Shown here: piece after piece, positions 4,328 through 50,285 of the stretch
How positions within the stretch are numbered: the first letter of the stretch is position 1
How the letters are laid out: each line of letters begins with the position of its first letter
NCBI GenBank assembly: GCA_965215275.1
Contig: OZ244044.1
Coordinates: forward strand, 560,855-624,854
Origin: Thermodesulfobacteriota bacterium
GTDB taxonomy: Bacteria; Desulfobacterota_D; UBA1144; Nemesobacterales; JAJCZQ01
Length of the DNA: 64,000 nt
Direction: 5' to 3'
Program-made: the position numbers and the translations under genes
The notes under the pieces: model-generated
What the model was told of the DNA's origin: nothing
What the model saw: the letters and a program-made list of their open reading frames with translations, nothing else
Database searches by the model: none

Positions 4328-4486
4328 TGCATTTGAAACATTCAGCGAGGAACAATTTTTGCCAATGCTATATTCCATATGGACTAGTTGTTTTTAGTTT
4401 GTCGGGAATCTCCACCTAACTGGAATAGTTTTTTCACTCTTGTAAATTTATAATATCTATGCTAAAAAACTATTTGGAGACTAACT

Positions 4487-10086: not shown

Positions 10087-10384
10087 ATAACAAAACACAG
10101 CTGGGGCACTGACTCATGCCCTTTAATAAGTAGCCGCCAGACGACCCCAGAAGTCGCTCCATTTTTCTTGGTAGATAATGACTTTCGCTGGCGTGTATGT
10201 GAGTACGACTGCAATCTTTCCTATTTTACTGACTTTGTTATCAACCGGGTATCCGAAGACCATAGTTTCAATGACCCGGAATACCATCTCTGGTTTAAGG
10301 TCCTCCAAGATCTCCGCAGCATAGAAAACCTGGTTATTGCTCCGGGCAGCAGCACGGACGAACAGGAACGACCAAAGGAGACCT

Positions 10385-13300: not shown

Positions 13301-13963
13301 TACTGGTCCGGGCGTTATATAAAACTCTCTGATGACGTTAAGGCTGGAAAGCAGCCACGTGTGCAGCCCGAGATGGCCAAGCGGCGATATGAAGAACTCA
13401 CCGCCAGGCTAGAACAACGGGAGAAAGAACTCATCGCCATGCGCAGCGTGGTTTCCGGCAGTCCAGTCGTAATAGGTGGCAGCCTGATCATCCCGCAGGG
13501 CATGCTGGCACAGCACAAAGGTGAGACCAATTTCACTGCTGATGCAGCCTCTCGTTCCCGTATTGAGCAAATCGCCATGGATGCCGTCATTAAAACGGAA
13601 AAAGCCTTTGGACATGAAGTCAAGAACATTGCAGCGGACAAATGCGGCTGGGACGTCACCGCAAGACCACCTGCTGTTAACGGCAAGCTGCTGGAGGACC
13701 GACATATTGAGGTCAAAGGCAGAGCTAAAGGCCAGAGCACAATAACGGTAAGCCGTAATGAGATCATATATGGGCTAAATCAAGCCGAAAAATTCATCCT
13801 GGCCATTGTGATCGTAGACGGCGATAGCTATGAAGAACCTTACTACATCAAATATCCGTTTTCTCAGGAACCGGGTTTTGGGGTGGCGAGTATCACTTTC
13901 GACCTAAAGGACTTGATATCCAAGGCAGTGGCACCAGAACAAACATTACAGGTGGTGGAATAA
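10385..13963 (+). CDS. SNF2/SWI2-family helicase with C-terminal DUF3883 (restriction-endonuclease-like) domain; first gene of the candidate defence operon
   Basis: Motif [15 protein letters not shown], motif [19 protein letters not shown], and the helicase-C block [16 protein letters not shown]...[22 protein letters not shown]. The C-terminus CGWDVTAR...[10 protein letters not shown]...ITVSRNEI...ILAIVIVDG is typical of DUF3883. GGAG RBS aaaggagacctATG at 10385. The track start 10337 adds 16 aa with no RBS. Confidence 0.8.
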
Positions 13964-16819: not shown

Positions 16820-16834
16820 AGGAGGATAAGAACA

Positions 16835-19669
16835 ATGACGATCAAACCCTGGCGTGAAATTATAAAACCTCACAAAGATGTGCTCGAGGGTACGTTCAAG
16901 CAATCTGAATTTGCAGCCGATATCTCTCAGGTGGCCTCCTGTACAGCAACCGATGAATACCAAGACCCAGAGAAGTTCTTTGCCCGCACATTCATTACGG
17001 AGGGCATGCGCCTGTTATTAATTTCCGTTGCTCAGCGACTGGCTGGTCAGGGTGGCGACCCTGTTATACAACTGCAAACCGCTTTTGGTGGTGGCAAGAC
17101 CCATACCATGCTGGCCGTGTTCCATATGGCTGATCGAAAAGTCAGCACCGATAAACTGGCAGGTATCCCTACTGTCCTTGATGAAGCAGGTATTTCTCAA
17201 TTGCCTCGTGCCAAGGTCGCCGTACTGGATGGTATTAAACTCTCCCCAAGCCAACCGCTTGATCACGATGGCCTGACCGTTAATACCCTGTGGGGTGAAC
17301 TGGCCTGCCAACTTCTAGGCAAAGCTGGATATAACAAAGTAGCACAAGCGGATCAGGATGGAACATCACCAGGTAAAGACGTTCTGGTGGATCTGCTGAA
17401 CGAAGCATCTCCATGTGTGGTACTGATCGATGAACTCGTTGCTTTCATCCGTCAGTTCGATATTGGTAAGCAGTTCAATGCCGGAACTTTCGACAGCAAT
17501 ATCTCGTTCATCCAGGCACTCACTGAAGCTATGAAATCGGTTCCTGATGCCATTCTTTTAGCCTCCCTACCCGCGTCTGATCTTGAGGTCGGTGGTAACA
17601 TGGGTCAAAGAGCATTGAACTCTCTTGAGCAATATTTTGCACGTGTGGAATCCGTCTGGAAACCGGTTGCCACCGAAGAAGCTTTTGAGATCGTCAGACG
17701 CCGTCTGTTCGATACCGTTGACGACAGCACTGAACTTGAAAACGTATGTAAGCGTTTCGCTGATCTCTACCGGGACAACAGCGACAAGTTCCCATCGGAT
17801 ACCCAGTCCAGTCACTATCAGGACCGACTACGTCAGTCCTATCCTATTCATCCGGAAATCTTTGACCGGCTGTATGAAGACTGGTCCACACTGGATAAAT
17901 TCCAGCGTACCCGTGGCGTATTGCAATACATGGCAATAGTTATCCATCACCTGTGGAATTCTGACAACCGTGACGCACTCATCATGCCTGGTTCTATTCC
18001 AATGTATGACGACAATGTAAGAACCAAGAGCATTCATTATCTGCCGCAGGGATGGGAACCTGTTATTGAGAAAGAAATTGATGGACCAAGATCAGAACCC
18101 TTTAATATTGACGGTCATGACACCCGGTTTGGCAGCGTACAGGCTGCTCGTCGTGCCGCACGTACTATTTTCCTTGGCAGTGCGCCATCGACTGGTGACC
18201 AGATGATCCGCGGGATCAAGGCAGATCAAATCCTGCTGGGAACTTTGCAGCCGGGACAGACGGCTGGTGTATTTGAAGACGTCCTGCGCCGCTTACGTGA
18301 CCGATTGCACCACCTCTACTCGAAAGAGGAGCGTTTATGGTTCGATACCAAACCGAACCTTCGGCGCGAAATGGAAAGCCGTAAGCAAAATATCAATGAT
18401 CAGAAGGAGGTACAACCACAACTCAAGGCTCGGGTCACCGGAGTCTTTGGGCGTAATAATTCCTTTGCCGGTATCCATGTATTCACACCATCCGCTGATG
18501 TGCCGGACGAATGGGGAACTGGTCCAAGGCTGGTCGTACTGTCACCAAGATCATCATACAGCCGTGGTGATGATGACAATATGGCCTGTGCTACCGAAGA
18601 GATACTACACAAACGTGGTGAACATCCCCGTCAGAAACAGAACCGTTTGATCTTCCTTGCTCCAGACTACGACGTTGTTAGCCGGTTAAGTGATCAGGCA
18701 AGAACCTATCTGGCATGGAAATCCATCCTTGATGATTTCCAGTCGGATAAACTGGTCTATCAAAGTAATCAGCTTGCCGAGGTTAAACGTGCCGTAGAAG
18801 GTGCCGAGCAAACGCTTCAGCGATTAGTCCGTGAAACCTACAAATGGCTGATCTGCCCCGTTGTGGAAGAACCCGTCCGTGGCAAACAACCACTTAAGTG
18901 GGAGACCATCTTGGTATCCCCCACCGCACAGAACCTTGTGCAGGAGATCGAAAACAAACTCCGCGAAGAAGATTGGCTGATATCAGAATGGTCACCCATA
19001 CACCTACGCAACATACTAAACAAGTGGTATTTCAAGGATGGCGTCACAGAGGTCAGTGCACTTAAGGTTTACCAAGACTGCTGCAATTACCTCTATTTGC
19101 CCCGACTACAAAATGACCAAGTGTTAAAGCGTTCCATTGAGCAAGGGCTGAAAACGGAAGACTTCTTTGGTTTCGCAAGAGGCAAGGAAGAAGGCAAATA
19201 CCTCGGATTTGTCTTTGGTAACAACACCATGGTTACTCTGGATGATTCAGAATTACTAATAGAACGTGATGCTGCCGCTGCGTACAAAGAAAGTATTAAG
19301 CCGCCACAGTCAGAACCAGATACCACGGGAGGTAGTGATCAGCCTGATAATACTATTCCACCAAGCGGAGGAACTGCCTCACAACCTGGAGATAAAGTAT
19401 CAGCAAAACCTACTCCGGGAGCAATGGTTAAAAAAGAGTTTTATGGCACGACCACGCTGGAACCTGTCGGTGCAACCATGGAGTTTCAGAAAATCGTGGA
19501 TGAAGTGGTCCAGCAATTTACTTCGAAACTGGGTGTTGAGGTCACAATTACAGTATATATCACAGCTAAATCCCGTGATGGTTTTGATGAATCCATGCAA
19601 CGTTCGATCAAGGAAAACTGTAACGTGCTCCAGTTCAGTAGTGCGGAATTTGAGGAAGGTGAGCAATAA
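16835..19669 (+). CDS. DUF499 (COG1483) AAA+ ATPase
   Basis: N-terminus [33 protein letters not shown]...[15 protein letters not shown] is the DUF499 signature. Walker [15 protein letters not shown] and Walker [15 protein letters not shown] aaggaggataagaacaATG. Confidence 0.8.
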
Positions 19670-30411: not shown

Positions 30412-31002
30412 TCAGGACCTTGCAAATTTTATAAGCGGTTCAAAGTTAAATTTATCAGCTTCCTTCAATGCCTTGATATATACTTTCCTTATCTTGCCTT
30501 TCTGGATCAAACTGACTCCCCCACCCCAGGTGAACCTTTTCCGCTTAAGTACGTTCTCAAGAAGAATATCCGCCATCAGCCTTGAAGTCCTGCCGTTACC
30601 ATTACTGAAAGGATGGATAAAGACCAGGCGATGATGAAGTCTCGCGGCTATTTCATCCGGGGGATAGGTGTTACTTTCTATCCATATCTCCACGTCTCTG
30701 CACATATTCCTTACGGAAGAAGATATCTCCCACCATGATACCCCGATGTTCGTATCCTGTTTTCTGAAATAACCGGCGTTTTTCCATACCTGACCGAACA
30801 TCCTGCGATGCAGGTCCCTTATAAACTTTCCGCTCAGGATATTATCAGGTTTTACCTTTTTCAGCCAGATCAATGCCTCTTTAATGTTCTGATATTCCCA
30901 TCTGTTCAAATCTTCACGGTTAGTAACATGGATCAATAAAAGCTCTCTTGCCTCGTCCGGGTCGATCGGGGTTGATCCCATTGGGGCTTTATTTTTGCTC
31001 AT
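30412..31002 (-). CDS. Fic-family protein ('mobile mystery protein B')
   Basis: Fic motif HPFSNGNGRTSRL (HPFx[DE]GNGR). ~196 aa. Paired with the upstream HTH gene. Confidence 0.8.
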   Translation of the reverse strand: MSKNKAPMGSTPIDPDEARELLLIHVTNREDLNRWEYQNIKEALIWLKKVKPDNILSGKFIRDLHRRMFGQVWKNAGYFRKQDTNIGVSWWEISSSVRNMCRDVEIWIESNTYPPDEIAARLHHRLVFIHPFSNGNGRTSRLMADILLENVLKRKRFTWGGGVSLIQKGKIRKVYIKALKEADKFNFEPLIKFARS

Positions 31003-31005
31003 TGA

Positions 31006-31464
31006 CTAATCCCACAGGTCTCTGGGCATATCGTTCATTATGCCTTCCACGTCTTCTGAAAATAAATTTTTCAAATTCTTATCCTTTATTTTCTGCTTTT
31101 CAAGGACCATTGTCTGATCAACTATTTTCAGTCTTTCTCTTGCGACCTCTTCAGCTCTCTTTCTTACGGTGTCCTCCAGACTGGTCCGAGGAATAAGGCT
31201 ATAGACAAGAACACAGTCCAGACTTTCAGCAACCTTTCTGAGGGTTTTTATCGTTATGGAACCCACGACCTCATCCTGCTCAAGCCTGGCAACGCTCTGC
31301 TTGGACGTATTCAGCCTCCTGGCAAGCTGCCTTCCGCTCATTCCCAGCCCTTCCCTTATTGAACGTATCCAGCCAAGTGGAGGAGTTCTGAGCTTTTTCA
31401 GCAAAGCGAACCCGGACAAAGCCCCGTCTATCTGTTCTCTTACGATCTTTTTTTTCGTCTTCAT
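31006..31464 (-). CDS. XRE-type HTH regulator ('mobile mystery protein A'), probable antitoxin/regulator of the Fic protein
   Basis: HTH LGMSGRQLARRLNTSKQSVARLE. It sits 4 nt upstream of Fic in the same orientation. The ATG at 31464 is preferred; the track starts at TTG 31473. Confidence 0.65.
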   Translation of the reverse strand: MKTKKKIVREQIDGALSGFALLKKLRTPPLGWIRSIREGLGMSGRQLARRLNTSKQSVARLEQDEVVGSITIKTLRKVAESLDCVLVYSLIPRTSLEDTVRKRAEEVARERLKIVDQTMVLEKQKIKDKNLKNLFSEDVEGIMNDMPRDLWD

Positions 31465-31466
31465 AA

Positions 31467-31522
31467 TTGACAATATATATTATGACTTTTATTTTTATAT
31501 GACAATATATATATTGTCATAT
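31467..31522. promoter_or_regulatory. Operator/promoter with a perfect 20-bp palindrome TGACAATATATATATTGTCA (31500..31519) and a second TGACAATATATAT half-site overlapping the start codon
   Basis: Read directly. On the minus strand, TTGTCA then 17 nt then TAATAT gives a sigma70-like promoter embedded in the palindrome. Confidence 0.5.
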
Positions 31523-36950: not shown

Positions 36951-37565
36951 TTATAGGCTGGTTTTCTCAAAACCCAAAATTACAGGTTCATATATTTCTT
37001 CTGTGAACTCAAATAGCAGGTTGGCAAGTTCATTAGCAAACTCACTCCTGTTGTGAGGTAATATCCGTTTAAGGGTTTCCATCTGTTCAAGGGTTCCCCT
37101 TGTTTGAAAATCATAGCCTGTATTTTCACAGACGGCGAGATACCACTTGTTATCAGTTATTTCTCTGTCGTCTTCAAGGTTTTTTCTAATATTTTTAATT
37201 TCTTCAGTATACTGCCTTATTTTCTCTTCAAACCTTTCCTTCTTTCTTTCATTAATCCACAGCCCATAGCAAAGATTATACCCTTCGCTGCCAGATAGCC
37301 TCTCAAAAATTACTCTAATATCACCATCTGCAAAGCAAAATCCCAACTTAGACCATTTGTTCTTAGTATAGTCTTTTTCTATCTTCCATCCTTTTTTCCC
37401 TTCTTCCACTTTTCTTTTTAATTCTCCCTTTACCTCTTCCCAGAATTCCTCTACCAACCGATCTTTAATTTTTGGAAAATTCTCTGAAATCTCACAAGCC
37501 GCAGAAAAGTTCTCCTCTGTTTCGGTTAAAAATTCAAAAACCTTTTCGTCATACTTGCTCGTCAT
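36951..37565 (-). CDS. Hypothetical protein, copy 1 of a tandemly duplicated gene (low GC)
   Basis: 204 aa MTSKYDEKVFEFLTETEENFSAACEISENFPKIK... It is about 60% identical to 38211..38789. Acidic, no recognisable catalytic motif. Confidence 0.5.
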   Translation of the reverse strand: MTSKYDEKVFEFLTETEENFSAACEISENFPKIKDRLVEEFWEEVKGELKRKVEEGKKGWKIEKDYTKNKWSKLGFCFADGDIRVIFERLSGSEGYNLCYGLWINERKKERFEEKIRQYTEEIKNIRKNLEDDREITDNKWYLAVCENTGYDFQTRGTLEQMETLKRILPHNRSEFANELANLLFEFTEEIYEPVILGFEKTSL

Positions 37566-38215
37566 TTCATTCTCCTTACTTTCATAAAAACTATAAACTA
37601 ATTATCACTTCTATATATGTTTTCAGTAAATATTTAACCTTGGATGCCCCAATCTTTCTTACATTCTCTCAGCCAATCTTTAATATATTTTTACAGCTAA
37701 TACTACATAAAACATTGTTGTCCTTTAGATACTCTCTTTTTCCTTACACATTGAAGTATTTGAAGCATCCTTGCTTCCAACCGTCAGGAAATTTATAGTT
37801 TAGCTCTAATTGATCTGATTGATCATAAGCATGTATTTTATTCTCTATCACGATAACAAATCTCTTTTGGGATTAATCAAGTGCTGCGAAGGTACTTATA
37901 AAGGCAATCTCCAGAAGAATAATCTTTAACACTTCCCCAAGCCTTTCTGAATGGAATTCCAGGTACACAAAAGCGTAACAGGAACTATAAAAGTCGTAAG
38001 GAGTACCAAAAAATTTATCCCTTATAAAACCAAATAATAACTGATTCCCAAATTAGTCAATCAATCTACTTTTTTTCAAACAACAGAGAGTAAAACAGAA
38101 TGAAAACGACCCCGATCAAGGGAAAAATCAGCAGACTAAGGTTTCCCGAAAAAATGCGTCCAAATTTTGGTCCTCTTTGGGTTGATATGAAAAAACGGTG
38201 CAATTATATTTCACG
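37566..38215. repeat. Decayed duplicate segment: 37566..37880 is a partial copy of 38790..39150 (3' end of the nuclease-family gene), and 37920..38215 is a degenerate copy of the nuoM 5' end/leader (36560..36950)
   Basis: Direct alignment by eye, for example cctttctgaatgga(a/g)ttcca(g/t)gtacacaaaagcgtaacagg and ttcattctccttactttcataaaaactataaactaat, shared between the two loci. Confidence 0.6.
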
Positions 38216-38789
38216 AGTTAGTTTTATCAGGACCTGTAATCCCCCGAATTATAGGTTCTTCTATCTCTTCTGTGAACTCAAATAGCAGGTTAGCAAGTTC
38301 ACTAGCAAATTCACTCCTGTTGTGAGGTAAGATCCGTCTAAGGGTTTCCCTTGTTTTAAAATCATAGCCTGTATCTTTATAGGCAAGCCGCCAATCGTTA
38401 CTAATCATTTCTTTGTCGTCTTTAAGTTTTTTAATCTCTGAATCGTACAGTTCTATTTTTTCTTTAAACTCTTCCTTGTTGTCGTAATTTCTCCACAGCC
38501 CATAATAGTTGCTTTTTTCACTTGATAGCCCCCCGAAAATTACTCTAATGTCACCACCTGCAAACCAAAATCCCAGATTAGCATTTTTGTTCATAGTATC
38601 GCCTTCTTTTTTTATATCCCATCCTTTTTCATTTTTTCTTTCTAATTCTCCCTTTACCTCTTCCCAGAACTCTTTTATAAATCGTTCTTTAATTTTTGGA
38701 AAGTTCTCTGAAATCTCACAAGCCGCAGAAAAGTTCTCCTCTGTTTCGGTTAAAAATTCAAAAATTTTTTCGTCATATTTGCTCGTCAT
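38211..38789 (-). CDS. Hypothetical protein, copy 2 of the duplicated gene
   Basis: 192 aa paralog of 36951..37565, with the same N-terminus MTSKYDEKIFEFLTETEENFSAACEISENFPKIKE and C-terminus RILPHNRSEFA(S/N)ELANLLFEFTEEI. Confidence 0.5.
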   Translation of the reverse strand: MTSKYDEKIFEFLTETEENFSAACEISENFPKIKERFIKEFWEEVKGELERKNEKGWDIKKEGDTMNKNANLGFWFAGGDIRVIFGGLSSEKSNYYGLWRNYDNKEEFKEKIELYDSEIKKLKDDKEMISNDWRLAYKDTGYDFKTRETLRRILPHNRSEFASELANLLFEFTEEIEEPIIRGITGPDKTNS

Positions 38790-38814: not shown

Positions 38815-39558
38815 CTATAAACTAATGATTACTTCTATATATGCTTTCAGTAAATATTTAACCTTGGATGCCTCAACATCTTTCATACATTCTTCCAGCC
38901 AAGTTTTAATATCGTTTTTATAACTAATATCACGTAATACATCTTTACCCTTTAGTTCATTTTCTAATTCCTGCTTGATTGTATAATCTGAAGCATCTTT
39001 TCCTTGAACCGTCAGATAAAATAATGCCATTTGTTCATCTTTATACCTTTTGCTTAGAAATTCATGGTATCGCTTTAATTGATCTTCTTGATCAGAGGCA
39101 TATATTTTATTCTCTATCACGATACCAAATCTCTTTTGGGGATCATTGGAATGAACGTACAGGTCTAATCTGCCCCATCCCGTGTGATACTCTTTACCGA
39201 CTATATAGCCGCTTTCCTTTTCAAGTTTAAAATGTTCCCTTTTTTCTTCCGAAATAAACCTGTCAATGAAGGACCGTAAGAATAAACCACCTTGTCCATG
39301 CGTGCCGTCCGGCTGTAACAGGTCTTTCAAAAATAGGGTATGTGTTTTTTCAGAAGTACTGACATCTATGATCTTAAAAATATTGTAATCAAATGCCTCT
39401 TTTTTATTGCACTCCGCAAACTTAGACCTAAAAGTATTATAATGTCCCAGCAGTGCCTGGAAATTCTGCTTAAACTCATCCACCCTTTCATCTGCAGTTT
39501 CTTCGGAAAACCGTCTGTAACGGTCTAAAAAGGATGATATTCGTTCTGTTTCATTCAT
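38815..39558 (-). CDS. PD-(D/E)xK nuclease-family protein
   Basis: GWGRLDLYVHSNDPQKRFGIVIENKIYASDQEDQLKRY gives a D...E-x-K catalytic triad arrangement. Low GC. It is adjacent to tRNA-fMet. Confidence 0.45.
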   Translation of the reverse strand: MNETERISSFLDRYRRFSEETADERVDEFKQNFQALLGHYNTFRSKFAECNKKEAFDYNIFKIIDVSTSEKTHTLFLKDLLQPDGTHGQGGLFLRSFIDRFISEEKREHFKLEKESGYIVGKEYHTGWGRLDLYVHSNDPQKRFGIVIENKIYASDQEDQLKRYHEFLSKRYKDEQMALFYLTVQGKDASDYTIKQELENELKGKDVLRDISYKNDIKTWLEECMKDVEASKVKYLLKAYIEVIISL

Positions 39559-42740: not shown

Positions 42741-45700
42741 CTACGTCTTTATCTGATATCTTCTCTTCCTTCTGATAGCTACTGACACGGGTATAAGTAT
42801 CAGACATGCCATTACTCCAAGCAGATCAGGAACAACGTTGCTCTGATCTGAGACAGCACATCCTCCTCCACCTCCACCTGCTTCAGTATCTGGTGCTGGT
42901 CTTGGTCTTGGATTTGGTGGTGGCGGCGGAGCAGGAGGAGCCTCTACAATAAGTATGAAACTCACCTCATCCGTATCTCCATTCCTGTCCGTTACTATAT
43001 ACCTGTAAGTATCAGTCGATGCTCTCGTCGGTGTGCCACTTATTTCTCGGGTAACTTCGTTAAAACTCAATCCAGCTGGCAGATCAGGAGTTATACTGTA
43101 AGTAACTGGTGGATTCCCTCCCGTTGCCTCTGGCAGCGTTATTGGTCTCCCTGCTGTGTACTCCATTTGAGTAGAAATTGTCGTACCGTCAAGGTCTGGA
43201 GTGCTGTCTTCTTCTATTGTTATTCTGAACATCAACTCAGCTGTATCTCCATCTACATCTGTAACACTCCATGTATAAGGAGTTTCATGCATCGCAGTAG
43301 TGGGTGTACCGCTTATTTCTTGAGTAGCTGAGTTAAAACTCAATCCAGTTGGCAATGCAGGCGTTATACTGTACCTTAATCCTCCATTCCCTGATGTTGC
43401 TGCAGGCAGCGTTACCGGTGTTATTGAACTCCCTGCTATATATTCCTTATCATCTATCGTCTCACCACTAAAAGTTGGCATTGCGTCTGCTAATATTGTG
43501 ATCCCGAACATCAACTCAGCTGTATCTCCATCTACGTCAGTTACAGTATATGTATAAACTGTTCTGCTCGCTGCAGTAGTCGGTGTCCCGCTTATCTCGC
43601 GGGTAGCAGGGGTAAAAATCAATCCAGCAGGTAATCCAGGTGTTATACTGTAAGTTAATGTTCCGTTCCCTCCCGCTGCTGCAGGCAGCGTTACCGGAAG
43701 GTTTATTGTTTTCCCTGCTATGTACTCCTGATCATCTATCATATCACTGAAGGTTGGTTCTTCATTTGCAGTTACAGTGATACCGAACGTCAACTTTGCA
43801 GTATCTCCATCTATGTCTTCTACCGTATATGTATAAGTATCCTTACTCATTGCAGTAGCCGGTGTCCCACTTATCTCGCGGGTATTTTCGTTAAAATCCA
43901 ATCCAGTTGGTAACTTAGGTGTTAAACTGTAAGTTAATGTTCCATTCCCTCCTGCTGCCTCAGGCAGCGTTACTGGAATGTTTATTGTTTTCCCTGCTAT
44001 GTACTCCTGATTAGCTATCGTATCACTGAAACTTGGTTCTTCGTTTGCAGCTACTGTGATACCGAAACTCAAATCAGCCGTATCTCCATCTATGTCTTCT
44101 ACCGTATATGTATAAGTATCCTTACTCATTGCAGTAGCCGGTGTCCCACTTATCTCGCGGGTAGCAGAGGTAAAGATTAATCCAGTCGGTAATGCAGGCG
44201 TTAAACTGTAAGTTAATGGAGCATTTCCTCCCGCTGCTGCAGGCAGTGTCACCGGAAGGTTTGTCGTTTTCCCTGCTATATACTCCTGATTAGCTATCGT
44301 ATCACTGAAACTTGGTTCTTCGTTTGCAGCTACTGTGATACCGAAACTCAAATCAGCCGTATCTCCATCTTTGTCTCTTACCGTATACGTGTAAGTACCA
44401 GATGATGCACTCGCAGGTGTGCCGCTTATCACTCGGGTAGATGCGTTAAAATACAATCCAGTTGGTAACTTAGGTGTTAAACTGTAAGTTAATGGAGCAT
44501 TCCCTCCCGCTGCTGCAGGTAATGTTACAGGAAGGTTTGTTGTTTTCCCTGCTATGTACTCCTGATCGGTTATCGCATCACTGAAGGCTGGTTCTTCGTT
44601 TGCAGCCACTGTGATACCGAAACTCAATTCATCCGTATCCCCGTCTTCGTCCGTTACTGTATATGTATAAACTGTTCTGCTCGCTGCAGTAGTCGGTGTC
44701 CCGCTTATCTCGCGGTGGGGGGGGGTAGATGCGTTAAAATTCAATCCAGTTGGTAATGTTGGGGTTATACTGTATCTTAATGCTCCATTCCCTCCCGTTG
44801 CCTCAGGTAGTATTTCCGTTACTGCGATACCCGTCAGATACTCCTTATCAGCTATCATCTCACCGCCAAAAGTCGGTTCTGTGTCTGCTTCTACCGTGAT
44901 CCCAAACCTTAACTCAAACCTATCTCCGTCTTTGTCTCTTACCGTATACGTGTAAGTACCAGATGATGCACTCACAGGTGTGCCGCTTATCACTCGGGTA
45001 GATGCGCTAAAATTTAATCCAGCAGGTAATATAGGTGTTATACTGTAAGTTAATGGAGCATTCCCTCCCGCTGCTGCGGGCAGTGTTACCGGAAGGTTCG
45101 TTGCCGTCCCTGCTACGTACTCCTGATCATCTATCGTCTCACTGAAAGTTGGTCTGTCGTCTGCAGCTACTGTGATCCCGAACATCAGATCATCCGTATC
45201 TCCGTCTTTATCTGTTACCGTATACGTGTAAGTATCCTCAGGCATTGCAGTAGTGGGTGTGCCACTTAGCACTCGGGTAATTTCGTTCAAATCCAATCCA
45301 GCAGGTAAAGCAGGCGTTATAGTATATCTTAATGTTCCATTCCCTCCCGTTGCCTCAGGCAGCGTTACAGGAAGGTTTGTTGTTTTCCCTGCTATGTACT
45401 CCTGATCACCTATCATCTTACCGCCAAAGTCCGGCAGGCTGTCTGCTTCTACCGTGATCCCGAATGTCAAATCATCCGTATCTCCGTCTTTGTCTCTTAC
45501 CGTATACGTGTAAGTATCCTTAGGCATTGCAGCAGTGGGTGCGCCACTTATCTCTCGGGTAGCAGGGGTAAAGATCAATCCAGCAGGTAAAGAAGGATTT
45601 AAACTGTATATTAAATCTCCATTCCCTCCCGTTGCCTCAGGCAGCGTTACAGGAAGATTTGCTGTTTTCCCTGCTACGTACTCCTTATCAGCTATCATAT

Positions 45701-48700
45701 TACCGCCAAAGTCCGGCATGCTGTCTGCTTCTACCGTGATCCCGAACGTCAGATCATCACTATCTCCGTCTTTGTCTGTTACAGTATATGTATACATTCT
45801 CTTATTCGTTGCAGTAGTGGGTGTGCCACTTATCTCTCGGGTGGTTTCGTCAAAATCCAATCCAGCAGGTAAATCAGGTGTTATAGTGTATCTTAATGTT
45901 CCATTCCCTCCCGTTGCTTCAGGCAGCGTTACTGGAAGATTTGTTGTTTTCCCTGCTACGTACTCCTTATCAGCTATCATATTACCGCCAAATTCCGGCA
46001 TGCTGTCAGTTTCTACTGTGATCCCGAACGTCAGATCAGCTGTATCTCCTTCTTCGTCTCTTACCGTATACGTGTAAGTACCAGATGATGCACTCTCAGG
46101 TGTGCCACTTAGCACTCGGGTAGCAGGGGTAAAGATCAATCCAGCTGGTAAAGCAGGTGTTATACTATAGGTTAATGCTCCATCCCCTCCCACTGCAACA
46201 GGTAGAGTTTCCGTTATTGCTGTATCCGTAACATACTCCTTATCAGATATAGTCTCGCCGCTAAAGGTCGGCACATCAGATCCTACAGTGATCCCGAACT
46301 TTATTTGATCTGTATCTCCATCACCATCGATAACAGTATATGTATACATGGTCTTACTCGTTACAGTAGTGGGTGTTCCACTTATCTCTCGGGTGGTTTC
46401 GTCAAAATCCAATCCATCTGGTAAAAAAGAGAATATGACGGGTATATCAGAAGGAGCTAAACTGTACGTTAAGGTTCCATTCCCTCCCGTTGCAGCAGGT
46501 AGTATTTCCGTTACTGCGACACCCGTCAGATACTCCTTATCAGCTATCATATTACTGCCAAAGTCCGGCATTCTGTCAGCTTCTACCGTGATCCCGAACG
46601 TCAACTCATCCGTATCTCCTTCTTCGTCTTCTGCTGTATACGTGTAAACAGTCTTACTCATTGCAGTAGTGGGTGTTCCGCTTATCTCTCGGGTAGCAGG
46701 GGTAAAGATCAATCCAGTTGGTAAAGCAGGTGTTATACTATAGGTTAATGCTCCATCCCCTCCCACTGCAACAGGTAGAGTTTCCGTTATTGCTGTATCC
46801 GTAACATACTCCTTATCAGATATAGTCTCGCCGCTAAAGGTCGGCACATCAGATCCTACAGTGATCCCGAACTTTATTTGAGATGTATCTCCTTCATCAT
46901 CAGTAGCAGCATATGTATACATGGTCTTGCTCGTTACAGTAGTGGGTGTCCCGCTTATCTCTCGGGTGGCTTCGTCAAAATCCAATCCATCCGGCAAAGC
47001 AGGTGTTAAACTATAAATTAATGTTCCATTCCCTCCCGCTGCCTCAGGCAGTGTTTCCGTTACTGCAATACCCGTCAGATACTCCTTATCAGTTATCATA
47101 TTACTGCTAAAGCTTGGTACTGTATCGTCACTCCTATGACCATAGACTTTGATACTCCACGAGTGCAAGGTCCCGACATCTCTAGAAGCAGTATCAGAGA
47201 TATTAAGGGTCCATTCTCCAGCAGGATCTTCTCCTAGGTGTTTAGCTGAACCAAAACGATGAGTGTAATTGGTATAAGAGGTACGTGTTCCAAAAAGAAA
47301 AGCAAAGACCATAGCTCCCTGTACATGCTCCTTTGAAAGTTTCGACACGGTACCGTCAGGGGAGGTTATCTGTATCTCCAGATCTGCAAAGAAAGTGTGA
47401 GTGAACCTGAGATTGATCTCTACAAATTCCGTAAAAAGGTCAGTATCGGATATGTTCAGGCTGGAAATAATTTCTCCGTCTGCTCCACCTGTGTGATCGG
47501 GGATCGCTGTATTAATATTACCCGAGGAAGCAGTCAGGGTTTTCATCTGTGCAACCCGGTTCCAATTTTCGGCAAGTTCCACTGCCGCTTCAGCATCTAC
47601 TACGCCAAAACCGTACTTTGGATTGTAATTATAACTGTCTGTATCAGAACCGTATTTAAGTGCTCCCGTTTCCCAGCCCGGGTCGGTCGGGTCGTTCCTG
47701 CGAGCTGAAGCTGCCAGTATCAACTTCAGGTCCCTCCAGCTCAGATCACCGTTTACCTCTCTCATCAGTGCTGCTACACCTGAAACGGCCGGAGCGGAAA
47801 ATGATGTTCCTTCCTCTCTAAAACCATAGCGGTCGTTATTAGCGGTCGTTGTAATAAACGAACCTGGAGCACATATCCATAGACTTACTCCCTCTTCTGA
47901 AAAGGAACTTTTCCTGCCGAAACCGTCTACTGAACAGACAGAAGTTACGGCGTAGTAATTAGAATACTCTTCAAAATTAGCTTGGTCGTATAAAGTATGT
48001 CCATTTCCAGCCGACCAGACATAAAAAACTCCTTTACCACCAAACCCTTCCCTGATACCCGTTTCCACTGCCAGTTCCCAGGCTCTCCCGGAATTATGAA
48101 GACTGGGACGATCTGTTGCTCCCCAGCTGTTGCTGGATACCGCTGTTATAACGTGATTACGGGTCATAGCGTCTGCTATATTAGCTGAAGTACCATTACT
48201 CCCATCTAACAAGTTATAACTGTAGATACTTGCCTGAGGTGCTACCCCTCTCACGCCCAGTTCATTATCACCCACTGCCGCTATAACGCCCCCTGTTCGT
48301 GTACCATGACCTAAAGGACTGAATACATTATCGTTTCCGGAGTAATCATGATTGAGGTCGGAATTCACATTGTCAGCAAGGTCCTCATGATCGGAGTCTA
48401 TACCATCATCGACCACCGCAACGTTAATGCCACTCGCCAATATTTCATCATTCCAGACCCCCTCCACGTTTATATCCTCTCCGGCGGTTATTCTCTGCCC
48501 GTTAAATCTCCACTGCCCCGTATTGTTCAGATGCCACTGACAACCGTATAAAGGGTCGTCGGGAAAACCGGTGATAAGGTCCTCACAATCAGAGGAAGAA
48601 GTATTATCTCTGGTATCCGTTATAACCTGAAGCTGGTACTGGTCGGCACCACTGCTTCCCACGACGATATAGTACGTTCCCGGAACGAGAGGAGCTGAAA

Positions 48701-49019
48701 TATTCCGATTATCGTTGCTGTCACTTGCTATCAGGTCATCACTGCTGTCACACAACTGTAAACTGTAATCGAGATTATTACTGGTAAAGACTGTCCTTAT
48801 AATGACGTCAATATCGGACGCCGGGTCCATCTGAAAGTAATGCAGCCCGCCGGCACTTTCAAAACTCCCATCGTGTGCCGCTCCGTCCACTGTCAACGTG
48901 GCTTCGGTCACTGCACCGGAGTCACAGTTATTATCACTGGTCTGACCATAGGCAGCTATGGACGTTAAAAAGCACAGCATAAAAAAGATAAAGGGAATTA
49001 TATGCATAACTTCATACAC
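42741..49019 (-). CDS. Giant (2092 aa) secreted subtilisin-like (S8) serine protease with P-domain, ~14 tandem ~97-aa He_PIG/dystroglycan-cadherin-like repeats and a GlyGly-CTERM-like C-terminal sorting tail
   Basis: Signal peptide. S8 triad regions VAVVDDGID, GHGTRTGGVIAA and GTSFSAPAVSGVAALM. Repeats of the form LPEATGGNGTLTYSLTPALPAGLDFDETTREISGTPTT. C-terminus PPAPPPPPNPRPRPAP..GGGGGGCAVS + TM helix + RRKRRYQIKT. Confidence 0.8.
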   Translation of the reverse strand: MYEVMHIIPFIFFMLCFLTSIAAYGQTSDNNCDSGAVTEATLTVDGAAHDGSFESAGGLHYFQMDPASDIDVIIRTVFTSNNLDYSLQLCDSSDDLIASDSNDNRNISAPLVPGTYYIVVGSSGADQYQLQVITDTRDNTSSSDCEDLITGFPDDPLYGCQWHLNNTGQWRFNGQRITAGEDINVEGVWNDEILASGINVAVVDDGIDSDHEDLADNVNSDLNHDYSGNDNVFSPLGHGTRTGGVIAAVGDNELGVRGVAPQASIYSYNLLDGSNGTSANIADAMTRNHVITAVSSNSWGATDRPSLHNSGRAWELAVETGIREGFGGKGVFYVWSAGNGHTLYDQANFEEYSNYYAVTSVCSVDGFGRKSSFSEEGVSLWICAPGSFITTTANNDRYGFREEGTSFSAPAVSGVAALMREVNGDLSWRDLKLILAASARRNDPTDPGWETGALKYGSDTDSYNYNPKYGFGVVDAEAAVELAENWNRVAQMKTLTASSGNINTAIPDHTGGADGEIISSLNISDTDLFTEFVEINLRFTHTFFADLEIQITSPDGTVSKLSKEHVQGAMVFAFLFGTRTSYTNYTHRFGSAKHLGEDPAGEWTLNISDTASRDVGTLHSWSIKVYGHRSDDTVPSFSSNMITDKEYLTGIAVTETLPEAAGGNGTLIYSLTPALPDGLDFDEATREISGTPTTVTSKTMYTYAATDDEGDTSQIKFGITVGSDVPTFSGETISDKEYVTDTAITETLPVAVGGDGALTYSITPALPTGLIFTPATREISGTPTTAMSKTVYTYTAEDEEGDTDELTFGITVEADRMPDFGSNMIADKEYLTGVAVTEILPAATGGNGTLTYSLAPSDIPVIFSFLPDGLDFDETTREISGTPTTVTSKTMYTYTVIDGDGDTDQIKFGITVGSDVPTFSGETISDKEYVTDTAITETLPVAVGGDGALTYSITPALPAGLIFTPATRVLSGTPESASSGTYTYTVRDEEGDTADLTFGITVETDSMPEFGGNMIADKEYVAGKTTNLPVTLPEATGGNGTLRYTITPDLPAGLDFDETTREISGTPTTATNKRMYTYTVTDKDGDSDDLTFGITVEADSMPDFGGNMIADKEYVAGKTANLPVTLPEATGGNGDLIYSLNPSLPAGLIFTPATREISGAPTAAMPKDTYTYTVRDKDGDTDDLTFGITVEADSLPDFGGKMIGDQEYIAGKTTNLPVTLPEATGGNGTLRYTITPALPAGLDLNEITRVLSGTPTTAMPEDTYTYTVTDKDGDTDDLMFGITVAADDRPTFSETIDDQEYVAGTATNLPVTLPAAAGGNAPLTYSITPILPAGLNFSASTRVISGTPVSASSGTYTYTVRDKDGDRFELRFGITVEADTEPTFGGEMIADKEYLTGIAVTEILPEATGGNGALRYSITPTLPTGLNFNASTPPHREISGTPTTAASRTVYTYTVTDEDGDTDELSFGITVAANEEPAFSDAITDQEYIAGKTTNLPVTLPAAAGGNAPLTYSLTPKLPTGLYFNASTRVISGTPASASSGTYTYTVRDKDGDTADLSFGITVAANEEPSFSDTIANQEYIAGKTTNLPVTLPAAAGGNAPLTYSLTPALPTGLIFTSATREISGTPATAMSKDTYTYTVEDIDGDTADLSFGITVAANEEPSFSDTIANQEYIAGKTINIPVTLPEAAGGNGTLTYSLTPKLPTGLDFNENTREISGTPATAMSKDTYTYTVEDIDGDTAKLTFGITVTANEEPTFSDMIDDQEYIAGKTINLPVTLPAAAGGNGTLTYSITPGLPAGLIFTPATREISGTPTTAASRTVYTYTVTDVDGDTAELMFGITILADAMPTFSGETIDDKEYIAGSSITPVTLPAATSGNGGLRYSITPALPTGLSFNSATQEISGTPTTAMHETPYTWSVTDVDGDTAELMFRITIEEDSTPDLDGTTISTQMEYTAGRPITLPEATGGNPPVTYSITPDLPAGLSFNEVTREISGTPTRASTDTYRYIVTDRNGDTDEVSFILIVEAPPAPPPPPNPRPRPAPDTEAGGGGGGCAVSDQSNVVPDLLGVMACLILIPVSVAIRRKRRYQIKT
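44717..44725. repeat. G9 homopolymer (C9 in sense orientation) inside one protease repeat, in frame
   Basis: cgcggtgggggggggtagatg. It encodes the unique ASTPPHREISG insertion; other repeats have ASTR(E/V)ISG. Confidence 0.8.
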
Positions 49020-49233: not shown

Positions 49234-50034
49234 TTACCGGCTGTCCAGTAACTTTATTTCAAAAACCTTCGGCCAAAGTTTACCGGTTACAAATATCCTG
49301 CCCTTCTGCTTATCAAAGGCAATACCATTGAGAACCCCGACCTTACCGCCTGCCTTGACCATGTAATGAAGATTTGACAGGTCGTACCGGTCAATGACCT
49401 TTCCCGTACCGGGGTCTACAGAGATTATTTTATTAGATTTCCATATATTTGCATAAATTTTTCCGTTTATGTATTCAAGTTCGTTAAGCAGGTTCACCGC
49501 CCTGCCATTGTAAGAGACCGTAATTACCCTGGCTTGCTCCAGGGATACAGGATCGTAAAAGAAAAGTCTGTCCGTGCCATTACTTATTATAAGGCTTTCT
49601 CCATCGTTGGTTATTCCCCACCCCTCAAAAGGATAATCAAAATAGCCAACTATATTGAAGTCCTCAATATCATATATTATCCCGGTCATCGCCTTCCAGG
49701 TCAGCTGGTAGATCATGTCGTTCAACACGGTTATTCCTTCACCAAAAAGGTCACGCGGGAGATCGTGGATCTTTTCGACCCTGCCAGTTCGCAGATCGAT
49801 CTTACGCAGTGACGACCTGCCGTACAGACCAGTGCCTTCATACAGATTACCGTTGTAAAATACAAGCCCCTGTGTAAACGCATCCTCACTATGAGGATAT
49901 GATCTGATCACCGATACGCTTTTTATGGTGGATAAAGCAGATGCACTCCCTGCATATGACGCACACGGAACTGTCAGGACAAACGCCAGTACGGTAAAGA
50001 CAGCGTGATCGGCCCCTGAGCTAAACAACCTCAT
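49234..50034 (-). CDS. Glutaminyl-peptide cyclotransferase (bacterial/plant-type beta-propeller QC), secreted
   Basis: YPHSEDAFTQGLVFYNGNLYEGTGLYGRSSLRKIDLRTG...GEGITV...GWGITNDG. Start chosen at MRLFSSG... (signal peptide). The track ORF starts at 50100. Confidence 0.75.
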   Translation of the reverse strand: MRLFSSGADHAVFTVLAFVLTVPCASYAGSASALSTIKSVSVIRSYPHSEDAFTQGLVFYNGNLYEGTGLYGRSSLRKIDLRTGRVEKIHDLPRDLFGEGITVLNDMIYQLTWKAMTGIIYDIEDFNIVGYFDYPFEGWGITNDGESLIISNGTDRLFFYDPVSLEQARVITVSYNGRAVNLLNELEYINGKIYANIWKSNKIISVDPGTGKVIDRYDLSNLHYMVKAGGKVGVLNGIAFDKQKGRIFVTGKLWPKVFEIKLLDSR

Positions 50035-50285
50035 TTGAAGGTAAATTAAATACTTCCTGAAAAAACTGCAAATCATACGGTTAAGCACCAATGCTCTCAA
50101 TAATTTTTTAATTTTCTTGTCTTATCCTGAAAATTTAGGTATAGTTAAAAATATTATTAGTATACATAAATAAATTTTTATGCTTTACAAAAATATTATT
50201 CAGTCAGTTTTAGTTTTACAAGAAGTCATTTATTAAACGGCGGGTTCTCATAATAACAGTTGCCGATGATCCGGAGATAATAAAG

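What the first reader, a model, noticed from the sequence alone, without database searches (positions are those of the whole stretch)
42741..49019. 2092-aa secreted S8 protease with ~14 He_PIG/cadherin-like repeats and a GlyGly-CTERM-like tail
It has a subtilisin catalytic domain plus a P-domain. About 14 near-identical ~97-aa repeats follow, giving a 290-nt DNA periodicity across 42.9..47.1 kb. The C-terminus combines a proline-rich linker, a Gly6-Cys stretch, a TM helix and a basic tail, which resembles rhombosortase/exosortase-type sorting signals. This is a probable cell-surface protease. The repeat array is prone to recombination, and no cognate sortase is visible in the window.
Basis: partly seen in the sequence, partly recalled or inferred. 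Interest (0 to 1): 0.5.

Follow-up and report, generated by a model that had tools for sequence, protein, structure and literature searches.

The report
Giant subtilase with Cys-type sorting tail
This is a real 2092-residue, probably active kexin-like protease on a stalk of 15 Ig-like repeats; its conserved C-terminal tail is not the GlyGly-CTERM signal first proposed but an uncatalogued relative of the cysteine-containing sorting tags that some Gram-negative bacteria use to attach proteins to their surface.

Summary
The ORF (42741..49019, minus strand, 2092 aa) is real. It encodes a signal peptide, a weak PPC-like N-domain, a kexin/furin-type S8 domain with an intact D-H-N-S catalytic set, a P-domain, 15 He_PIG repeats, a Pro-rich linker and a 45-aa tail. 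There are 15 units, not about 14. They are 90-100 aa (mode 93), so the DNA period is 279 nt, not 290. They are divergent (63% aa, 74% nt identity), not near-identical. No GlyGly-CTERM, PEP-CTERM or MYXO-CTERM model hits the tail. Its Gly run ends in a 100% invariant Cys, which the GlyGly-CTERM definition excludes. The tail is conserved in 53 distinct copies: GGGC-xxS[DE]Q-x5-D-TM(LxLIPVS)-RRKxR. It also aligns without gaps to the tail of an unrelated beta-helix protein. Sub-threshold matches go to Synerg-CTERM and JDVT-CTERM, which are Cys-containing tags paired with CPBP/Rce1-type intramembrane proteases and type II secretion. The tail is very rare: 16 cluster representatives among 1.84 billion proteins. 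Best reading: a surface-tethered protease carrying a new variant of the Cys-type tripartite sorting signal. Processing is inferred, not shown.

The parts
42741..49019 (-). Whole gene: 2092-aa pre-protein. The start is GTG at 49019 or ATG at 49007; the stop codon is 42741-42743.
   Evidence: the ORF listing; translation; Pfam
48945..49019 (-). Sec-type signal peptide, residues 1-25 (..MHIIPFIFFMLCFLTSIAAYG|Q). The predicted signal peptidase I site A-Y-G|Q would leave an N-terminal Gln.
   Evidence: Read from the sequence. The A-[YK]-G-Q motif is conserved in family members that retain this region. Cleavage is inferred.
48615..48932 (-). N-terminal PPC-like (pre-peptidase C-terminal type) beta-sandwich domain, about residues 30-135. 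It sits where kexins carry a prodomain.
   Evidence: Weak Pfam PPC hit, E 0.0069, below cut-off. The homologous domain in P0125 scores above cut-off at 27.4 bits.
47694..48434 (-). Peptidase S8 catalytic domain, residues 196-442, with intact D204, H238, N297 and S406.
   Evidence: Pfam E 8.7e-40; kexin and furin are the best PDB matches, E 2e-42, over residues 154-633; catalytic columns checked against 120 homologues
47148..47426 (-). Proprotein-convertase P-domain, residues 532-624.
   Evidence: Pfam PF01483, E 4.2e-18; the alignment to kexin runs through the P-domain
42945..47111 (-). Array of 15 He_PIG (putative Ig / cadherin-like) repeats, residues 637-2025. Units are 90-100 aa and the DNA period is 279 nt. 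Units r1-r2 and r3-r4 look like a two-unit duplication.
   Evidence: Pfam He_PIG, 15 stretches; TRF; unit boundaries and identity matrices
42879..42944 (-). Proline-rich, presumably unstructured linker, residues 2026-2047 (EAPPAPPPPPNPRPRPAPDTEA).
   Evidence: Sequence. Relatives carry analogous Pro/Thr/Gly-rich linkers.
42858..42878 (-). Signature motif of the tail: a Gly6 run ending in the invariant Cys2054 (residues 2048-2054).
   Evidence: Cys is present in 53 of 53 distinct tails; the back-translated skeleton pattern matches only this site in the window, with 0 expected by chance
42825..42857 (-). Conserved polar spacer, residues 2055-2065 (AVSDQSNVVPD). S at +3 (98%), D/E at +4 (89%), Q at +5 (98%) and D at +11 (90%), counted from the Cys.
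   Evidence: Column profile of 53 tails; gapless alignment with the beta-helix protein P0134
42774..42824 (-). Transmembrane helix, residues 2066-2082 (LLGVMACLILIPVSVAI), containing the near-invariant L-x-L-I-P-V-S core.
   Evidence: Hydrophobicity and conservation. This stretch produces the sub-threshold Synerg-CTERM match.
42744..42773 (-). Cytoplasmic basic cluster and C-terminus, residues 2083-2092 (RRKRRYQIKT).
   Evidence: R29, R30, K31 and R33 are 90-96% conserved

Best explanation
The gene encodes an active kexin/furin-type (S8B) subtilase that is exported by Sec. It is held away from the cell on a roughly 15-domain He_PIG stalk and tethered through a lineage-specific C-terminal module.

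That module has four parts: a Gly run ending in an invariant Cys, an 11-residue polar spacer (xxS[DE]Q...D), a TM helix with an invariant LxLIPVS core, and an RRKxR cluster. [quoted passage not shown]

By analogy with that class, the TM helix first acts as a stop-transfer anchor in the inner membrane. The Cys is then modified, probably with lipid. A polytopic intramembrane protease, most likely CPBP/Rce1-type, removes the TM helix and basic tail. A type II secretion system then moves the lipid-anchored protein to the cell surface.

Shown here: the domain architecture, the intact catalytic residues, the conservation, rarity and modularity of the tail, and the diderm context. Inferred: cleavage, lipidation, the identity of the enzyme and the surface location.
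For: Architecture and active site.

Tail conservation: 53 distinct tails show C0 100%, S3 98%, Q5 98%, D11 90%, L19/L21/I22 100%, P23 96%, R29-R30 96%.

Modularity: the same skeleton, with identical spacing, closes P0134. P0134 is a signal-peptide-bearing right-handed beta-helix protein on a 37% GC contig and is unrelated to subtilases.

Class resemblance: 26 of 27 tails give sub-threshold Synerg-CTERM matches and 14 of 27 give JDVT-CTERM matches. None gives GlyGly-, PEP- or MYXO-CTERM. The literature describes Synerg-CTERM as a Ser/Gly cluster ending abruptly in one invariant Cys, with an invariant Pro in a Leu-rich TM, and JDVT-CTERM as having a conserved Asp-Pro just before the Leu-rich TM. 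Both are paired with CPBP proteases, and Synerg-CTERM also with a T2SS. MrtX has been shown experimentally to cleave MYXO-CTERM in a Cys-dependent way (PMC11980579).

Many clients per genome: at least 31 tail-bearing paralogues lie on one 1.99-Mb contig. They are dispersed and not next to any protease, as the Haft preprint describes for MYXO-CTERM, whose many-client housekeeping enzyme is not encoded near its targets.

Diderm envelope with LPS: TonB in the window, TonB-dependent receptors, HldE and a heptosyltransferase in relatives. By general knowledge, 15 Ig-like domains would exceed the width of a periplasm, which argues for surface display.
Against: No curated sorting-signal HMM reaches its cut-off. 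The best is Synerg-CTERM at 14-20 bits against a cut-off of 22.5, and the matched part is only the generic TM plus basic segment.

The 11-residue spacer has no counterpart in Synerg-CTERM, which has 'no spacer'.

No CPBP, rhomboid, exosortase or T2SS gene was seen in the 64-kb window or in about 140 kb of related contigs, and the genome could not be retrieved.

Nearly all tail carriers belong to one paralogous family. The tail is no more conserved than the S8 domain (64.6% against 69.4% over 819 pairs), so common descent alone could explain much of the conservation. The only independent passenger, P0134, is a single protein at E 4.7e-4.
Confidence: 0.5

Rival explanations
1. Plain type I membrane anchor. 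The C-terminal helix is never cleaved and simply holds the protease in the inner membrane, facing the periplasm. Tail conservation then reflects recent paralogy plus packing constraints.
For: No curated sorting model reaches threshold. No processing enzyme was found in about 200 kb sampled. The tail evolves at the same rate as the catalytic domain. Almost all carriers belong to one family.
Against: Generic anchors do not normally keep an invariant juxtamembrane Gly-run-Cys, an S-[DE]-Q motif and an L-x-L-I-P-V-S core across lineages of 37-45% GC and across unrelated passengers. A 15-domain stalk is hard to fit in a periplasm (inference). The architecture copies experimentally processed tags.
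Confidence: 0.27
2. GlyGly-CTERM substrate of a rhombosortase. A rhomboid-family protease would cleave at the Gly-rich motif and the protein would be lipid-anchored and exported by the T2SS, like VesB of Vibrio cholerae.
For: The tail has a Gly/Ser-rich motif, a TM helix and a basic cluster at the extreme C-terminus, preceded by an unstructured linker, and the passenger is a serine protease. These all parallel VesB (PMC6219818 abstract; PMC13393428).
Against: TIGR03501 gives no hit at E<=10 for the window tail or for 27 family tails. An invariant Cys in the signature motif is an explicit exclusion criterion (PMC3237569). The tail is 45 aa against about 22 aa, and an 11-aa spacer separates the motif from the TM. 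No rhomboid gene is in the window.
Confidence: 0.1
3. PEP-CTERM/exosortase-type or archaeosortase-type signal. The VPD in 'VVPDLL' would act as a degenerate PEP-like motif cleaved by an exosortase.
For: The window tail has V-P-D directly before the TM helix, and the tail has the tripartite architecture.
Against: The Pro at +10 is present in only 28% of tails; Ser is commoner there. There is no TIGR02595 or other exosortase-type CTERM hit. No EpsH-like protein is in the window or the related loci.
Confidence: 0.03

Closest known systems
Synerg-CTERM sorting domain (TIGR04564) with MrtS CPBP protease and a divergent T2SS (Synergistota)
   Same: The signature is a small Gly/Ser cluster ending abruptly in a single invariant Cys. 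The TM is Leu/Ile-rich with an invariant Pro and is followed by an Arg-rich cluster. It is the most frequent sub-threshold HMM match, in 26 of 27 tails (description).
   Different: Synerg-CTERM is 27 positions long and has no spacer. Here 11 conserved polar residues (xxS[DE]Q....D) lie between the Cys and the TM. Scores stay below the 22.5-bit cut-off. Envelope genes seen here and in relatives (TonB, HldE, TonB-dependent receptors) indicate an LPS diderm, but the taxon could not be determined, so membership of Synergistota was not tested. The cognate enzyme is unknown.
JDVT-CTERM (NF033191) with MrtJ (Pseudomonadota)
   Same: It has a single invariant Cys, a longer distance from the Cys to the Leu-rich TM, and a conserved acidic residue just before or inside the TM (DP nine residues after the Cys; here D at +11, often preceded by P or S). 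Sub-threshold hits occur in 14 of 27 tails.
   Different: JDVT-CTERM typically occurs once per genome, next to its protease. Here there are dozens of copies per genome and none is next to a protease. Scores are far below the 27-bit cut-off.
MYXO-CTERM (TIGR03901) with myxosortase MrtX; TraA of Myxococcus xanthus
   Same: It is a Gly/Cys signature tag with many clients per genome, a housekeeping enzyme that is not linked to its clients, and a diderm host. Cys-dependent cleavage and T2SS-dependent surface display have been shown experimentally.
   Different: No TIGR03901 hit at all. The MYXO-CTERM TM lacks Pro and charged residues and the motif often has a second Cys (GCGC). Here the TM has an invariant Pro and the motif has a single Cys.
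GlyGly-CTERM (TIGR03501) with rhombosortase; VesB, VesA and VesC serine proteases of Vibrio cholerae
   Same: The functional analogy holds: a secreted serine protease, an unstructured linker, a Gly-rich tripartite tail, and surface retention after T2SS export.
   Different: The definition excludes a Cys in the motif. GlyGly-CTERM is about 22 aa with no spacer, no HMM hit was obtained, and the passenger there is a trypsin-like protease rather than a subtilase.
Kexin/furin proprotein convertases (S8B) and Aeromonas sobria serine protease ASP
   Same: The catalytic domain plus P-domain aligns to kexin over residues 154-633 (E 2e-42), with D-H-N-S in place. ASP (3hjr) is the next best match (E 7.4e-35), over the catalytic domain only (residues 155-387).
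   Different: There is no recognisable S8 prodomain; a PPC-like N-domain takes its place. It also carries 15 He_PIG repeats and a membrane-sorting tail, and it is bacterial.

Membership tests
GlyGly-CTERM / rhombosortase system | C-terminal tripartite architecture: Gly-rich motif, TM helix, basic cluster | tested here: met
   Sequence GGGGGGC...LLGVMACLILIPVSVAI-RRKRR at the extreme C-terminus
GlyGly-CTERM / rhombosortase system | [quoted passage not shown] | tested here: not met
   Cys immediately after the Gly run in 53 of 53 tails; criterion quoted
GlyGly-CTERM / rhombosortase system | Recognised by HMM TIGR03501 (about 22 residues, motif next to the TM) | tested here: not met
   No TIGR03501 hit at E<=10 for the protein, its tail, or 27 family tails. 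The tail is 45 aa with an 11-aa spacer.
GlyGly-CTERM / rhombosortase system | Co-occurrence with a rhombosortase-subfamily rhomboid protease in the genome | not testable with these tools
   None in the window or in loci L006-L012. The genome is not in the searchable collections.
Cys-containing tripartite sorting signals (MYXO-/JDVT-/Synerg-/CGP-CTERM; CPBP 'Mrt' proteases) | Invariant Cys in a short signature motif upstream of the TM helix | tested here: met
   C0 at 100% in 53 tails and in P0134
Cys-containing tripartite sorting signals (MYXO-/JDVT-/Synerg-/CGP-CTERM; CPBP 'Mrt' proteases) | TM helix followed by an Arg-rich cluster at the extreme C-terminus, with conserved residues inside the TM | tested here: met
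   L19, L21 and I22 at 100%, P23 96%, R29-R30 96%
Cys-containing tripartite sorting signals (MYXO-/JDVT-/Synerg-/CGP-CTERM; CPBP 'Mrt' proteases) | Scores above the curated cut-off of one of the class HMMs (TIGR03901, NF033191, TIGR04564; CGP-CTERM model) | tested here: not met
   Synerg-CTERM scores 14-20 bits against a cut-off of 22.5. JDVT-CTERM scores at most about 11 bits against 27. MYXO-CTERM and CGP-CTERM give no hit.
Cys-containing tripartite sorting signals (MYXO-/JDVT-/Synerg-/CGP-CTERM; CPBP 'Mrt' proteases) | The tag is shared by proteins that are otherwise unrelated (modular sorting domain) | tested here: inconclusive
   Dozens of carriers exist, but all belong to one S8/P/He_PIG/PPC family or are fragments of it. 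The one unrelated carrier is P0134, a beta-helix protein, at E 4.7e-4 with a gapless alignment.
Cys-containing tripartite sorting signals (MYXO-/JDVT-/Synerg-/CGP-CTERM; CPBP 'Mrt' proteases) | Cognate CPBP-family (PF02517) intramembrane protease, and a T2SS, co-distributed with the tag | not testable with these tools
   No PF02517 or T2SS gene in the window or in about 140 kb of related loci.
Peptidase S8, kexin/furin subfamily (S8B) | Asp-His-Ser triad in subtilase order, plus the oxyanion Asn | tested here: met
   D204, H238, N297 and S406 align with the catalytic columns of 86 intact homologues among the 120 aligned and with kexin
Peptidase S8, kexin/furin subfamily (S8B) | P-domain directly after the catalytic domain | tested here: met
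   PF01483 at 532-624, E 4.2e-18; kexin alignment through residue 633
Peptidase S8, kexin/furin subfamily (S8B) | N-terminal inhibitor or chaperone prodomain (I9 / S8 prodomain) | tested here: not met
   No prodomain family in Pfam; only a weak PPC-like domain at residues 30-135
He_PIG (PF05345) repeat proteins | Tandem units of about 90-96 aa matching PF05345 | tested here: met
   15 stretches, E 3.9e-149; 15 units anchored on [IL]SG[TA]P
PEP-CTERM / exosortase | Pro-Glu-Pro signature and a TIGR02595 match | tested here: not met
   No PEP motif and no TIGR02595 hit. The Pro at +10 is present in only 28% of tails.

The most novel reading that the evidence does not exclude
The tail defines a fifth, so far uncurated class of cysteine-containing C-terminal sorting signals. 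Its distinguishing feature is a conserved polar spacer (C-x-x-S-[D/E]-Q-x5-D) between the Cys and a Pro-containing TM helix. It would serve a small-genome, uncultured diderm lineage in which one kexin-like subtilase family has expanded to dozens of surface-tagged copies, about 4% of a 2-Mb genome. Most of those copies are catalytically dead, so they would form a variable protein coat rather than a set of enzymes. The window protein would be one of the few active members and the one with by far the longest stalk. The cognate enzyme would be a new Mrt-type CPBP protease subfamily, or an entirely different intramembrane protease.
Probability: 0.35. Interest if true: 0.65.

Novelty: new variant of a known kind. 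Interest (0 to 1): 0.45.

Why it matters
C-terminal tripartite sorting tags (LPXTG, PEP-CTERM, GlyGly-CTERM, MYXO-CTERM and others) are how prokaryotes fix proteins covalently to their surfaces. Each newly recognised tag has led to a new sorting enzyme.

This tail is sharply conserved and extremely rare: 16 cluster representatives among 1.84 billion, none in 241 million JGI metagenome records, and no confirmed copy in 185,579 species genomes. No NCBIfam model recognises it. A lineage-specific HMM built from it would give the phylogenetic profile needed to find its enzyme. It would also correct automated annotation, which at present would call these proteins plain 'S8 family peptidases'.

The associated expansion of mostly inactive, surface-tagged subtilases in a roughly 2-Mb genome suggests a surface-variation or adhesion role, which would be worth testing in whatever habitat or host this lineage occupies.

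If the tail turns out to be only a stable membrane anchor, the finding reduces to an ordinary large repeat-containing envelope protease.

Tried and rejected
1. Exact look-ups of the window protease (both possible starts) and of the neighbouring PEPCK found nothing, so the window's genome is not indexed. P0002 and P0003, from the 1.99-Mb contig, were also not on record.

2. The tail-profile scan of species genomes matched 31 pattern sites but none was confirmed. The protease-profile scan found only distant Dehalococcoidia and sponge-MAG homologues at 45-49% identity and 58-71% GC. The lineage was therefore not detected among the species-representative genomes.

3. The metagenome scans with the protease profile and with a back-translated tail skeleton found nothing. 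One search showed beforehand that the skeleton pattern is specific in the window.

4. The word-indexed protein searches with tail profiles were uninformative. One was swamped by poly-Gly words and the other scored only 83 candidates. The exhaustive HMMER search replaced them.

5. The listing of cluster members gave no names or accessions. Literature searches for the assembly accessions, or for a He_PIG/subtilisin expansion, gave nothing relevant.

6. I looked for a sorting enzyme next to family members in seven related loci and among all polytopic ORFs there. Only transporters and respiratory subunits turned up.

7. The He_PIG-only and PPC-only tail carriers (P0124, P0125, P0127-P0129, P0132, P0133) are rejected as independent passengers. 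They lack signal peptides and start inside family domains, so they are fragments.

8. The P0044 'tail' was a false regex hit (GGC near a truncated end) and was ignored.

Full report
**1. What is there**

The window carries one uninterrupted ORF at 42741..49019 on the minus strand, 2092 codons long. It starts at GTG 49019, and the first ATG is at codon 5. The overlapping plus-strand ORFs of 99-180 aa inside it are by-products of the repeat array.

Pfam finds Peptidase_S8 (residues 196-442, E 8.7e-40), the proprotein-convertase P-domain (532-624, E 4.2e-18) and He_PIG (E 3.9e-149, 15 matched stretches). Against the PDB the best matches are yeast kexin and human furin (E about 1e-42). The alignment runs from residue 154 to 633, so it covers the catalytic domain and the P-domain. 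Next comes the Aeromonas sobria ASP protease. The catalytic Asp204, His238 and Ser406 and the oxyanion Asn297 are all present.

The N-terminus is a hydrophobic signal peptide ending A-Y-G|Q. A weak PPC-like domain follows, in place of the usual subtilase prodomain.

**2. The repeats**

Anchoring on the [IL]SG[TA]P and F-G-I-T-V motifs gives 15 units covering residues 637-2025, which is window 42945..47111. Unit lengths are 85-100 aa, mostly 90-95 with a mode of 93. TRF reports periods of 279 and 273 nt. Autocorrelation peaks at 279 nt, and lag 288 is at background.

Mean pairwise identity is 63% in protein (49-88%) and 74% in DNA (63-90%). Units 1-2 and 3-4 look like a two-unit duplication: r1/r3 are 81% identical, r2/r4 are 88% identical, and they share a 138-nt exact match. 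The next longest exact matches are 84 and 57 nt.

The '~14 near-identical ~97-aa repeats, 290-nt periodicity' is not. Only a few unit pairs offer long enough identity for easy homologous recombination. Among 56 relatives the He_PIG count is 0-6, so 15 is an outlier.

**3. The tail**

After a Pro-rich linker (EAPPAPPPPPNPRPRPAPDTEA) the protein ends GGGGGG-C-AVSDQSNVVPD-LLGVMACLILIPVSVAI-RRKRR-YQIKT. No other ORF in the window has such an end.

NCBIfam gives no GlyGly-CTERM, PEP-CTERM or MYXO-CTERM hit, even at E<=10. The only match is a sub-threshold Synerg-CTERM hit of 14-15 bits against a cut-off of 22.5, and it covers only the TM plus basic part. Across 27 family tails, 26 give that same weak Synerg-CTERM match and 14 give a weak JDVT-CTERM match. 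None gives GlyGly-CTERM.

**4. Relatives**

A search with the head (residues 1-660) found a tight group of 46 proteins at 53-76% identity. At least 31 of them sit on a single 1,990,023-bp contig. Thirty-nine of the 46 carry the same tail.

Over 53 distinct tails, numbered from the Cys, conservation is:
- C0 100%
- S3 98%
- D/E4 89%
- Q5 98%
- D11 90%
- L19, L21 and I22 100%
- P23 and V24 96%
- S25 98%
- R29 and R30 96%
- K31 90%
- R33 92%

More distant S8-P homologues (40-50% identity) lack the tail, and many end instead in a dockerin-like segment. Those recovered from the genome collection come from high-GC Dehalococcoidia and sponge-associated MAGs.

An exhaustive HMMER search of the tail profile against 1.84 billion cluster representatives found only 16 proteins. 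Fifteen are members or fragments of the same family. The sixteenth, P0134, has a signal peptide, a right-handed beta-helix (Beta_helix/NosD) and the tail GGGC-ALVDASKNSVD-LFSAFALLMLIPFVVVF-RRRK. It aligns to the protease tails without a gap and keeps C0, D11, L19, L21, I22, P23, R29 and R30. Its contig has 37% GC, against 42-45% for the protease lineage.

The tail is therefore a discrete module found on two unrelated passengers in at least two lineages, and it is otherwise absent from public data. It had no match in 241 million metagenome records and no confirmed match in 185,579 species genomes.

**5. Which class of signal**

Haft & Varghese (2011) define GlyGly-CTERM as a 22-residue domain whose signature 'never contains a Cys residue', whereas the Myxococcus-type 'always does' (PMC3237569). 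The invariant Cys here fails that definition.

Haft (2023, bioRxiv 10.1101/2023.06.07.544157) unites four Cys-containing tripartite tags and links each by comparative genomics to a CPBP/Rce1-type glutamic intramembrane protease. Synerg-CTERM is additionally linked to a T2SS. [quoted passage not shown] JDVT-CTERM has a near-invariant Asp-Pro nine residues after the Cys, preceding a Leu-rich TM.

The present tail combines the Synerg-type signature and Pro-containing TM with a JDVT-like Cys-to-TM distance and a conserved Asp. It adds its own S-[D/E]-Q motif. It meets no curated cut-off, so I do not file it as a member of any named family. It works like, and is probably a new variant of, the Cys-type class.

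MrtX has been shown experimentally to cleave MYXO-CTERM in a Cys-dependent manner and to be needed for surface display (PMC11980579). The GlyGly-CTERM/VesB system is a functional parallel: a serine protease with an unstructured linker and a tripartite tag, dependent on the T2SS (PMC13393428).

**6. Context**

The window is ordinary bacterial chromosome. IspG and PEPCK lie downstream. Glutaminyl cyclase, MntR and a ZnuABC-type transporter lie upstream. TonB, SecG, haem-biosynthesis genes and a defence island are elsewhere in the window.

No CPBP, rhomboid, exosortase, sortase or T2SS gene is present. The only polytopic proteins are a NuoN-like subunit, two ABC-3 permeases and a VTT/DedA protein.

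Seven related loci show family members scattered singly or in small clusters among housekeeping genes, again with no candidate enzyme. This matches the unlinked arrangement the Haft preprint reports for MYXO-CTERM and its many-client housekeeping enzyme, but it is not positive evidence. TonB-dependent receptors, HldE and a heptosyltransferase in relatives indicate a diderm with LPS.

**7. Mechanism proposed**

The steps are:
- Sec export and signal-peptidase cleavage at AYG|Q (inferred).
- Retention in the inner membrane by the C-terminal helix, with RRKRR on the cytoplasmic side (inferred from topology rules).
- Modification of Cys2054 and intramembrane cleavage distal to it, most likely by a CPBP-type protease (inferred by analogy).
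- T2SS-dependent transfer to the cell surface (inferred by analogy and from stalk length).

On the surface, the active kexin-like head would be held tens of nanometres out on 15 He_PIG domains. The recurrent D-x-D-G-D motifs suggest Ca-stiffened linkers, which is also an inference.

The main rival is an uncleaved inner-membrane anchor. The tail is no more conserved than the S8 domain (64.6% against 69.4%), so paralogy could explain much of the conservation. I put the sorting-signal reading at about 0.5, the plain anchor at about 0.27, GlyGly-CTERM/rhombosortase at about 0.1 and an exosortase type at about 0.03.

**8. Side finding**

In the related lineage most tail-bearing paralogues are pseudo-subtilases. 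The replacements are His to Arg (DRNS, DRNA), or Asp to Ser with His to Ser/Thr and Ser to Phe/Val/Ala. Only the subgroup closest to the window protein (P0001-P0009) and the window protein itself keep D-H-N-S. All 74 more distant homologues (P0047-P0120) are intact, as are P0044 and P0045.

On the 1.99-Mb contig, 31 paralogues total 26,588 aa, about 4% of the sequence, and only 3 have an intact catalytic set. This points to a surface-coat or adhesion role for the family at large.

**9. Verdict**

Novelty: a new variant of a known kind. Interest is moderate at 0.45. It would rise if a cognate enzyme or further passengers are found.

Noticed in passing
Related proteins P0010-P0046 (mostly one 1,990,023-bp contig); window protein for comparison, residues 204/238/297/406: Most tail-bearing paralogues in the related lineage have degenerate catalytic residues (DRNS x12, DRNA x4, -RNA x4, STNF x5, SSNF x4 and others). 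The window protein, P0001-P0009 and all 74 more distant homologues (P0047-P0120) keep D-H-N-S. Thirty-one paralogues make up about 4% of a 1.99-Mb contig. This looks like a large expansion of surface-tagged pseudo-subtilases.
   Followed up: partly
window 49234..50100 (-) and 48945..49019 (-): A glutaminyl cyclase gene (Glu_cyclase_2, E 2e-89) lies 215 nt upstream of the protease on the same strand. The predicted signal-peptidase site of the protease, and of every relative with an intact N-terminus, is A-[YK]-G|Q. The mature proteins would therefore start with Gln, a substrate for pyroglutamate formation. The adjacency is not conserved in the related loci.
   Followed up: partly
window 2948..7371 and 10337..19669 (+): A likely defence island. 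It holds an AAA_14/DUF4143 ATPase, an N6_Mtase/Eco57I-type methylase of 674 aa, an SNF2/helicase protein with a NOV_C domain (1208 aa), a DUF1156 protein (951 aa) and a DUF499 protein (944 aa). GC drops to 37-38% at 4-8 kb.
   Followed up: no
window 36951..37565 (-) and 38211..38789 (-), next to 38815..39558 (-): Two tandem paralogous ORFs (204 and 192 aa) with nearly identical N-termini (MTSKYDEK[VI]FEFLTETEENFSAACEISENF) and no Pfam family. They lie beside a PD-(D/E)XK nuclease (PDDEXK_4) in a low-GC stretch (38-39%).
   Followed up: no
window 30412..31473 (-): A Fic/DOC-domain protein (196 aa) directly downstream of a small HTH_3 (Xre-type) protein (155 aa), resembling a toxin-antitoxin pair.
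   Followed up: no
Proteins P0057-P0117 (distant homologues); loci L001-L005: The same S8 + P-domain head in high-GC Dehalococcoidia and sponge-associated MAGs is combined with FN3, cadherin, LRR or PPC domains. Many of these proteins end in a conserved dockerin/EF-hand-like segment (e.g. ...DYDADRNERIDREEAISAVIDYFDGLLTKEEALEIIQLYFSS) instead of the Cys-type tail. This would be an alternative attachment module on the same enzyme.
   Followed up: no
L011 1..12655: Three family members lie within 12 kb in GCA_964348445.1, with a Cas12f1-like_TNB (TnpB-type) fragment between two of them. This hints at how copies may spread. Two TonB-dependent receptors are nearby.
   Followed up: no
Relatives P0003, P0005, P0011-P0013, P0023, P0028 and others (N-termini); window 49007..49019: Many database gene calls for relatives start at an internal Met inside the signal peptide (MSIGAYGQ..., MVIAAKGQ...). 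This suggests that the true starts are non-ATG codons upstream, as with the GTG start in the window gene. Automated annotation probably misses the signal peptides of this family.
   Followed up: partly
window 46023..47111 (-), repeat units r1-r4: Units r1-r2 and r3-r4 form a two-unit duplication (81% and 88% aa identity) with a 138-nt exact DNA match between r2 and r4. This is the place where assembly collapse or expansion, or recombination, is most likely.
   Followed up: partly
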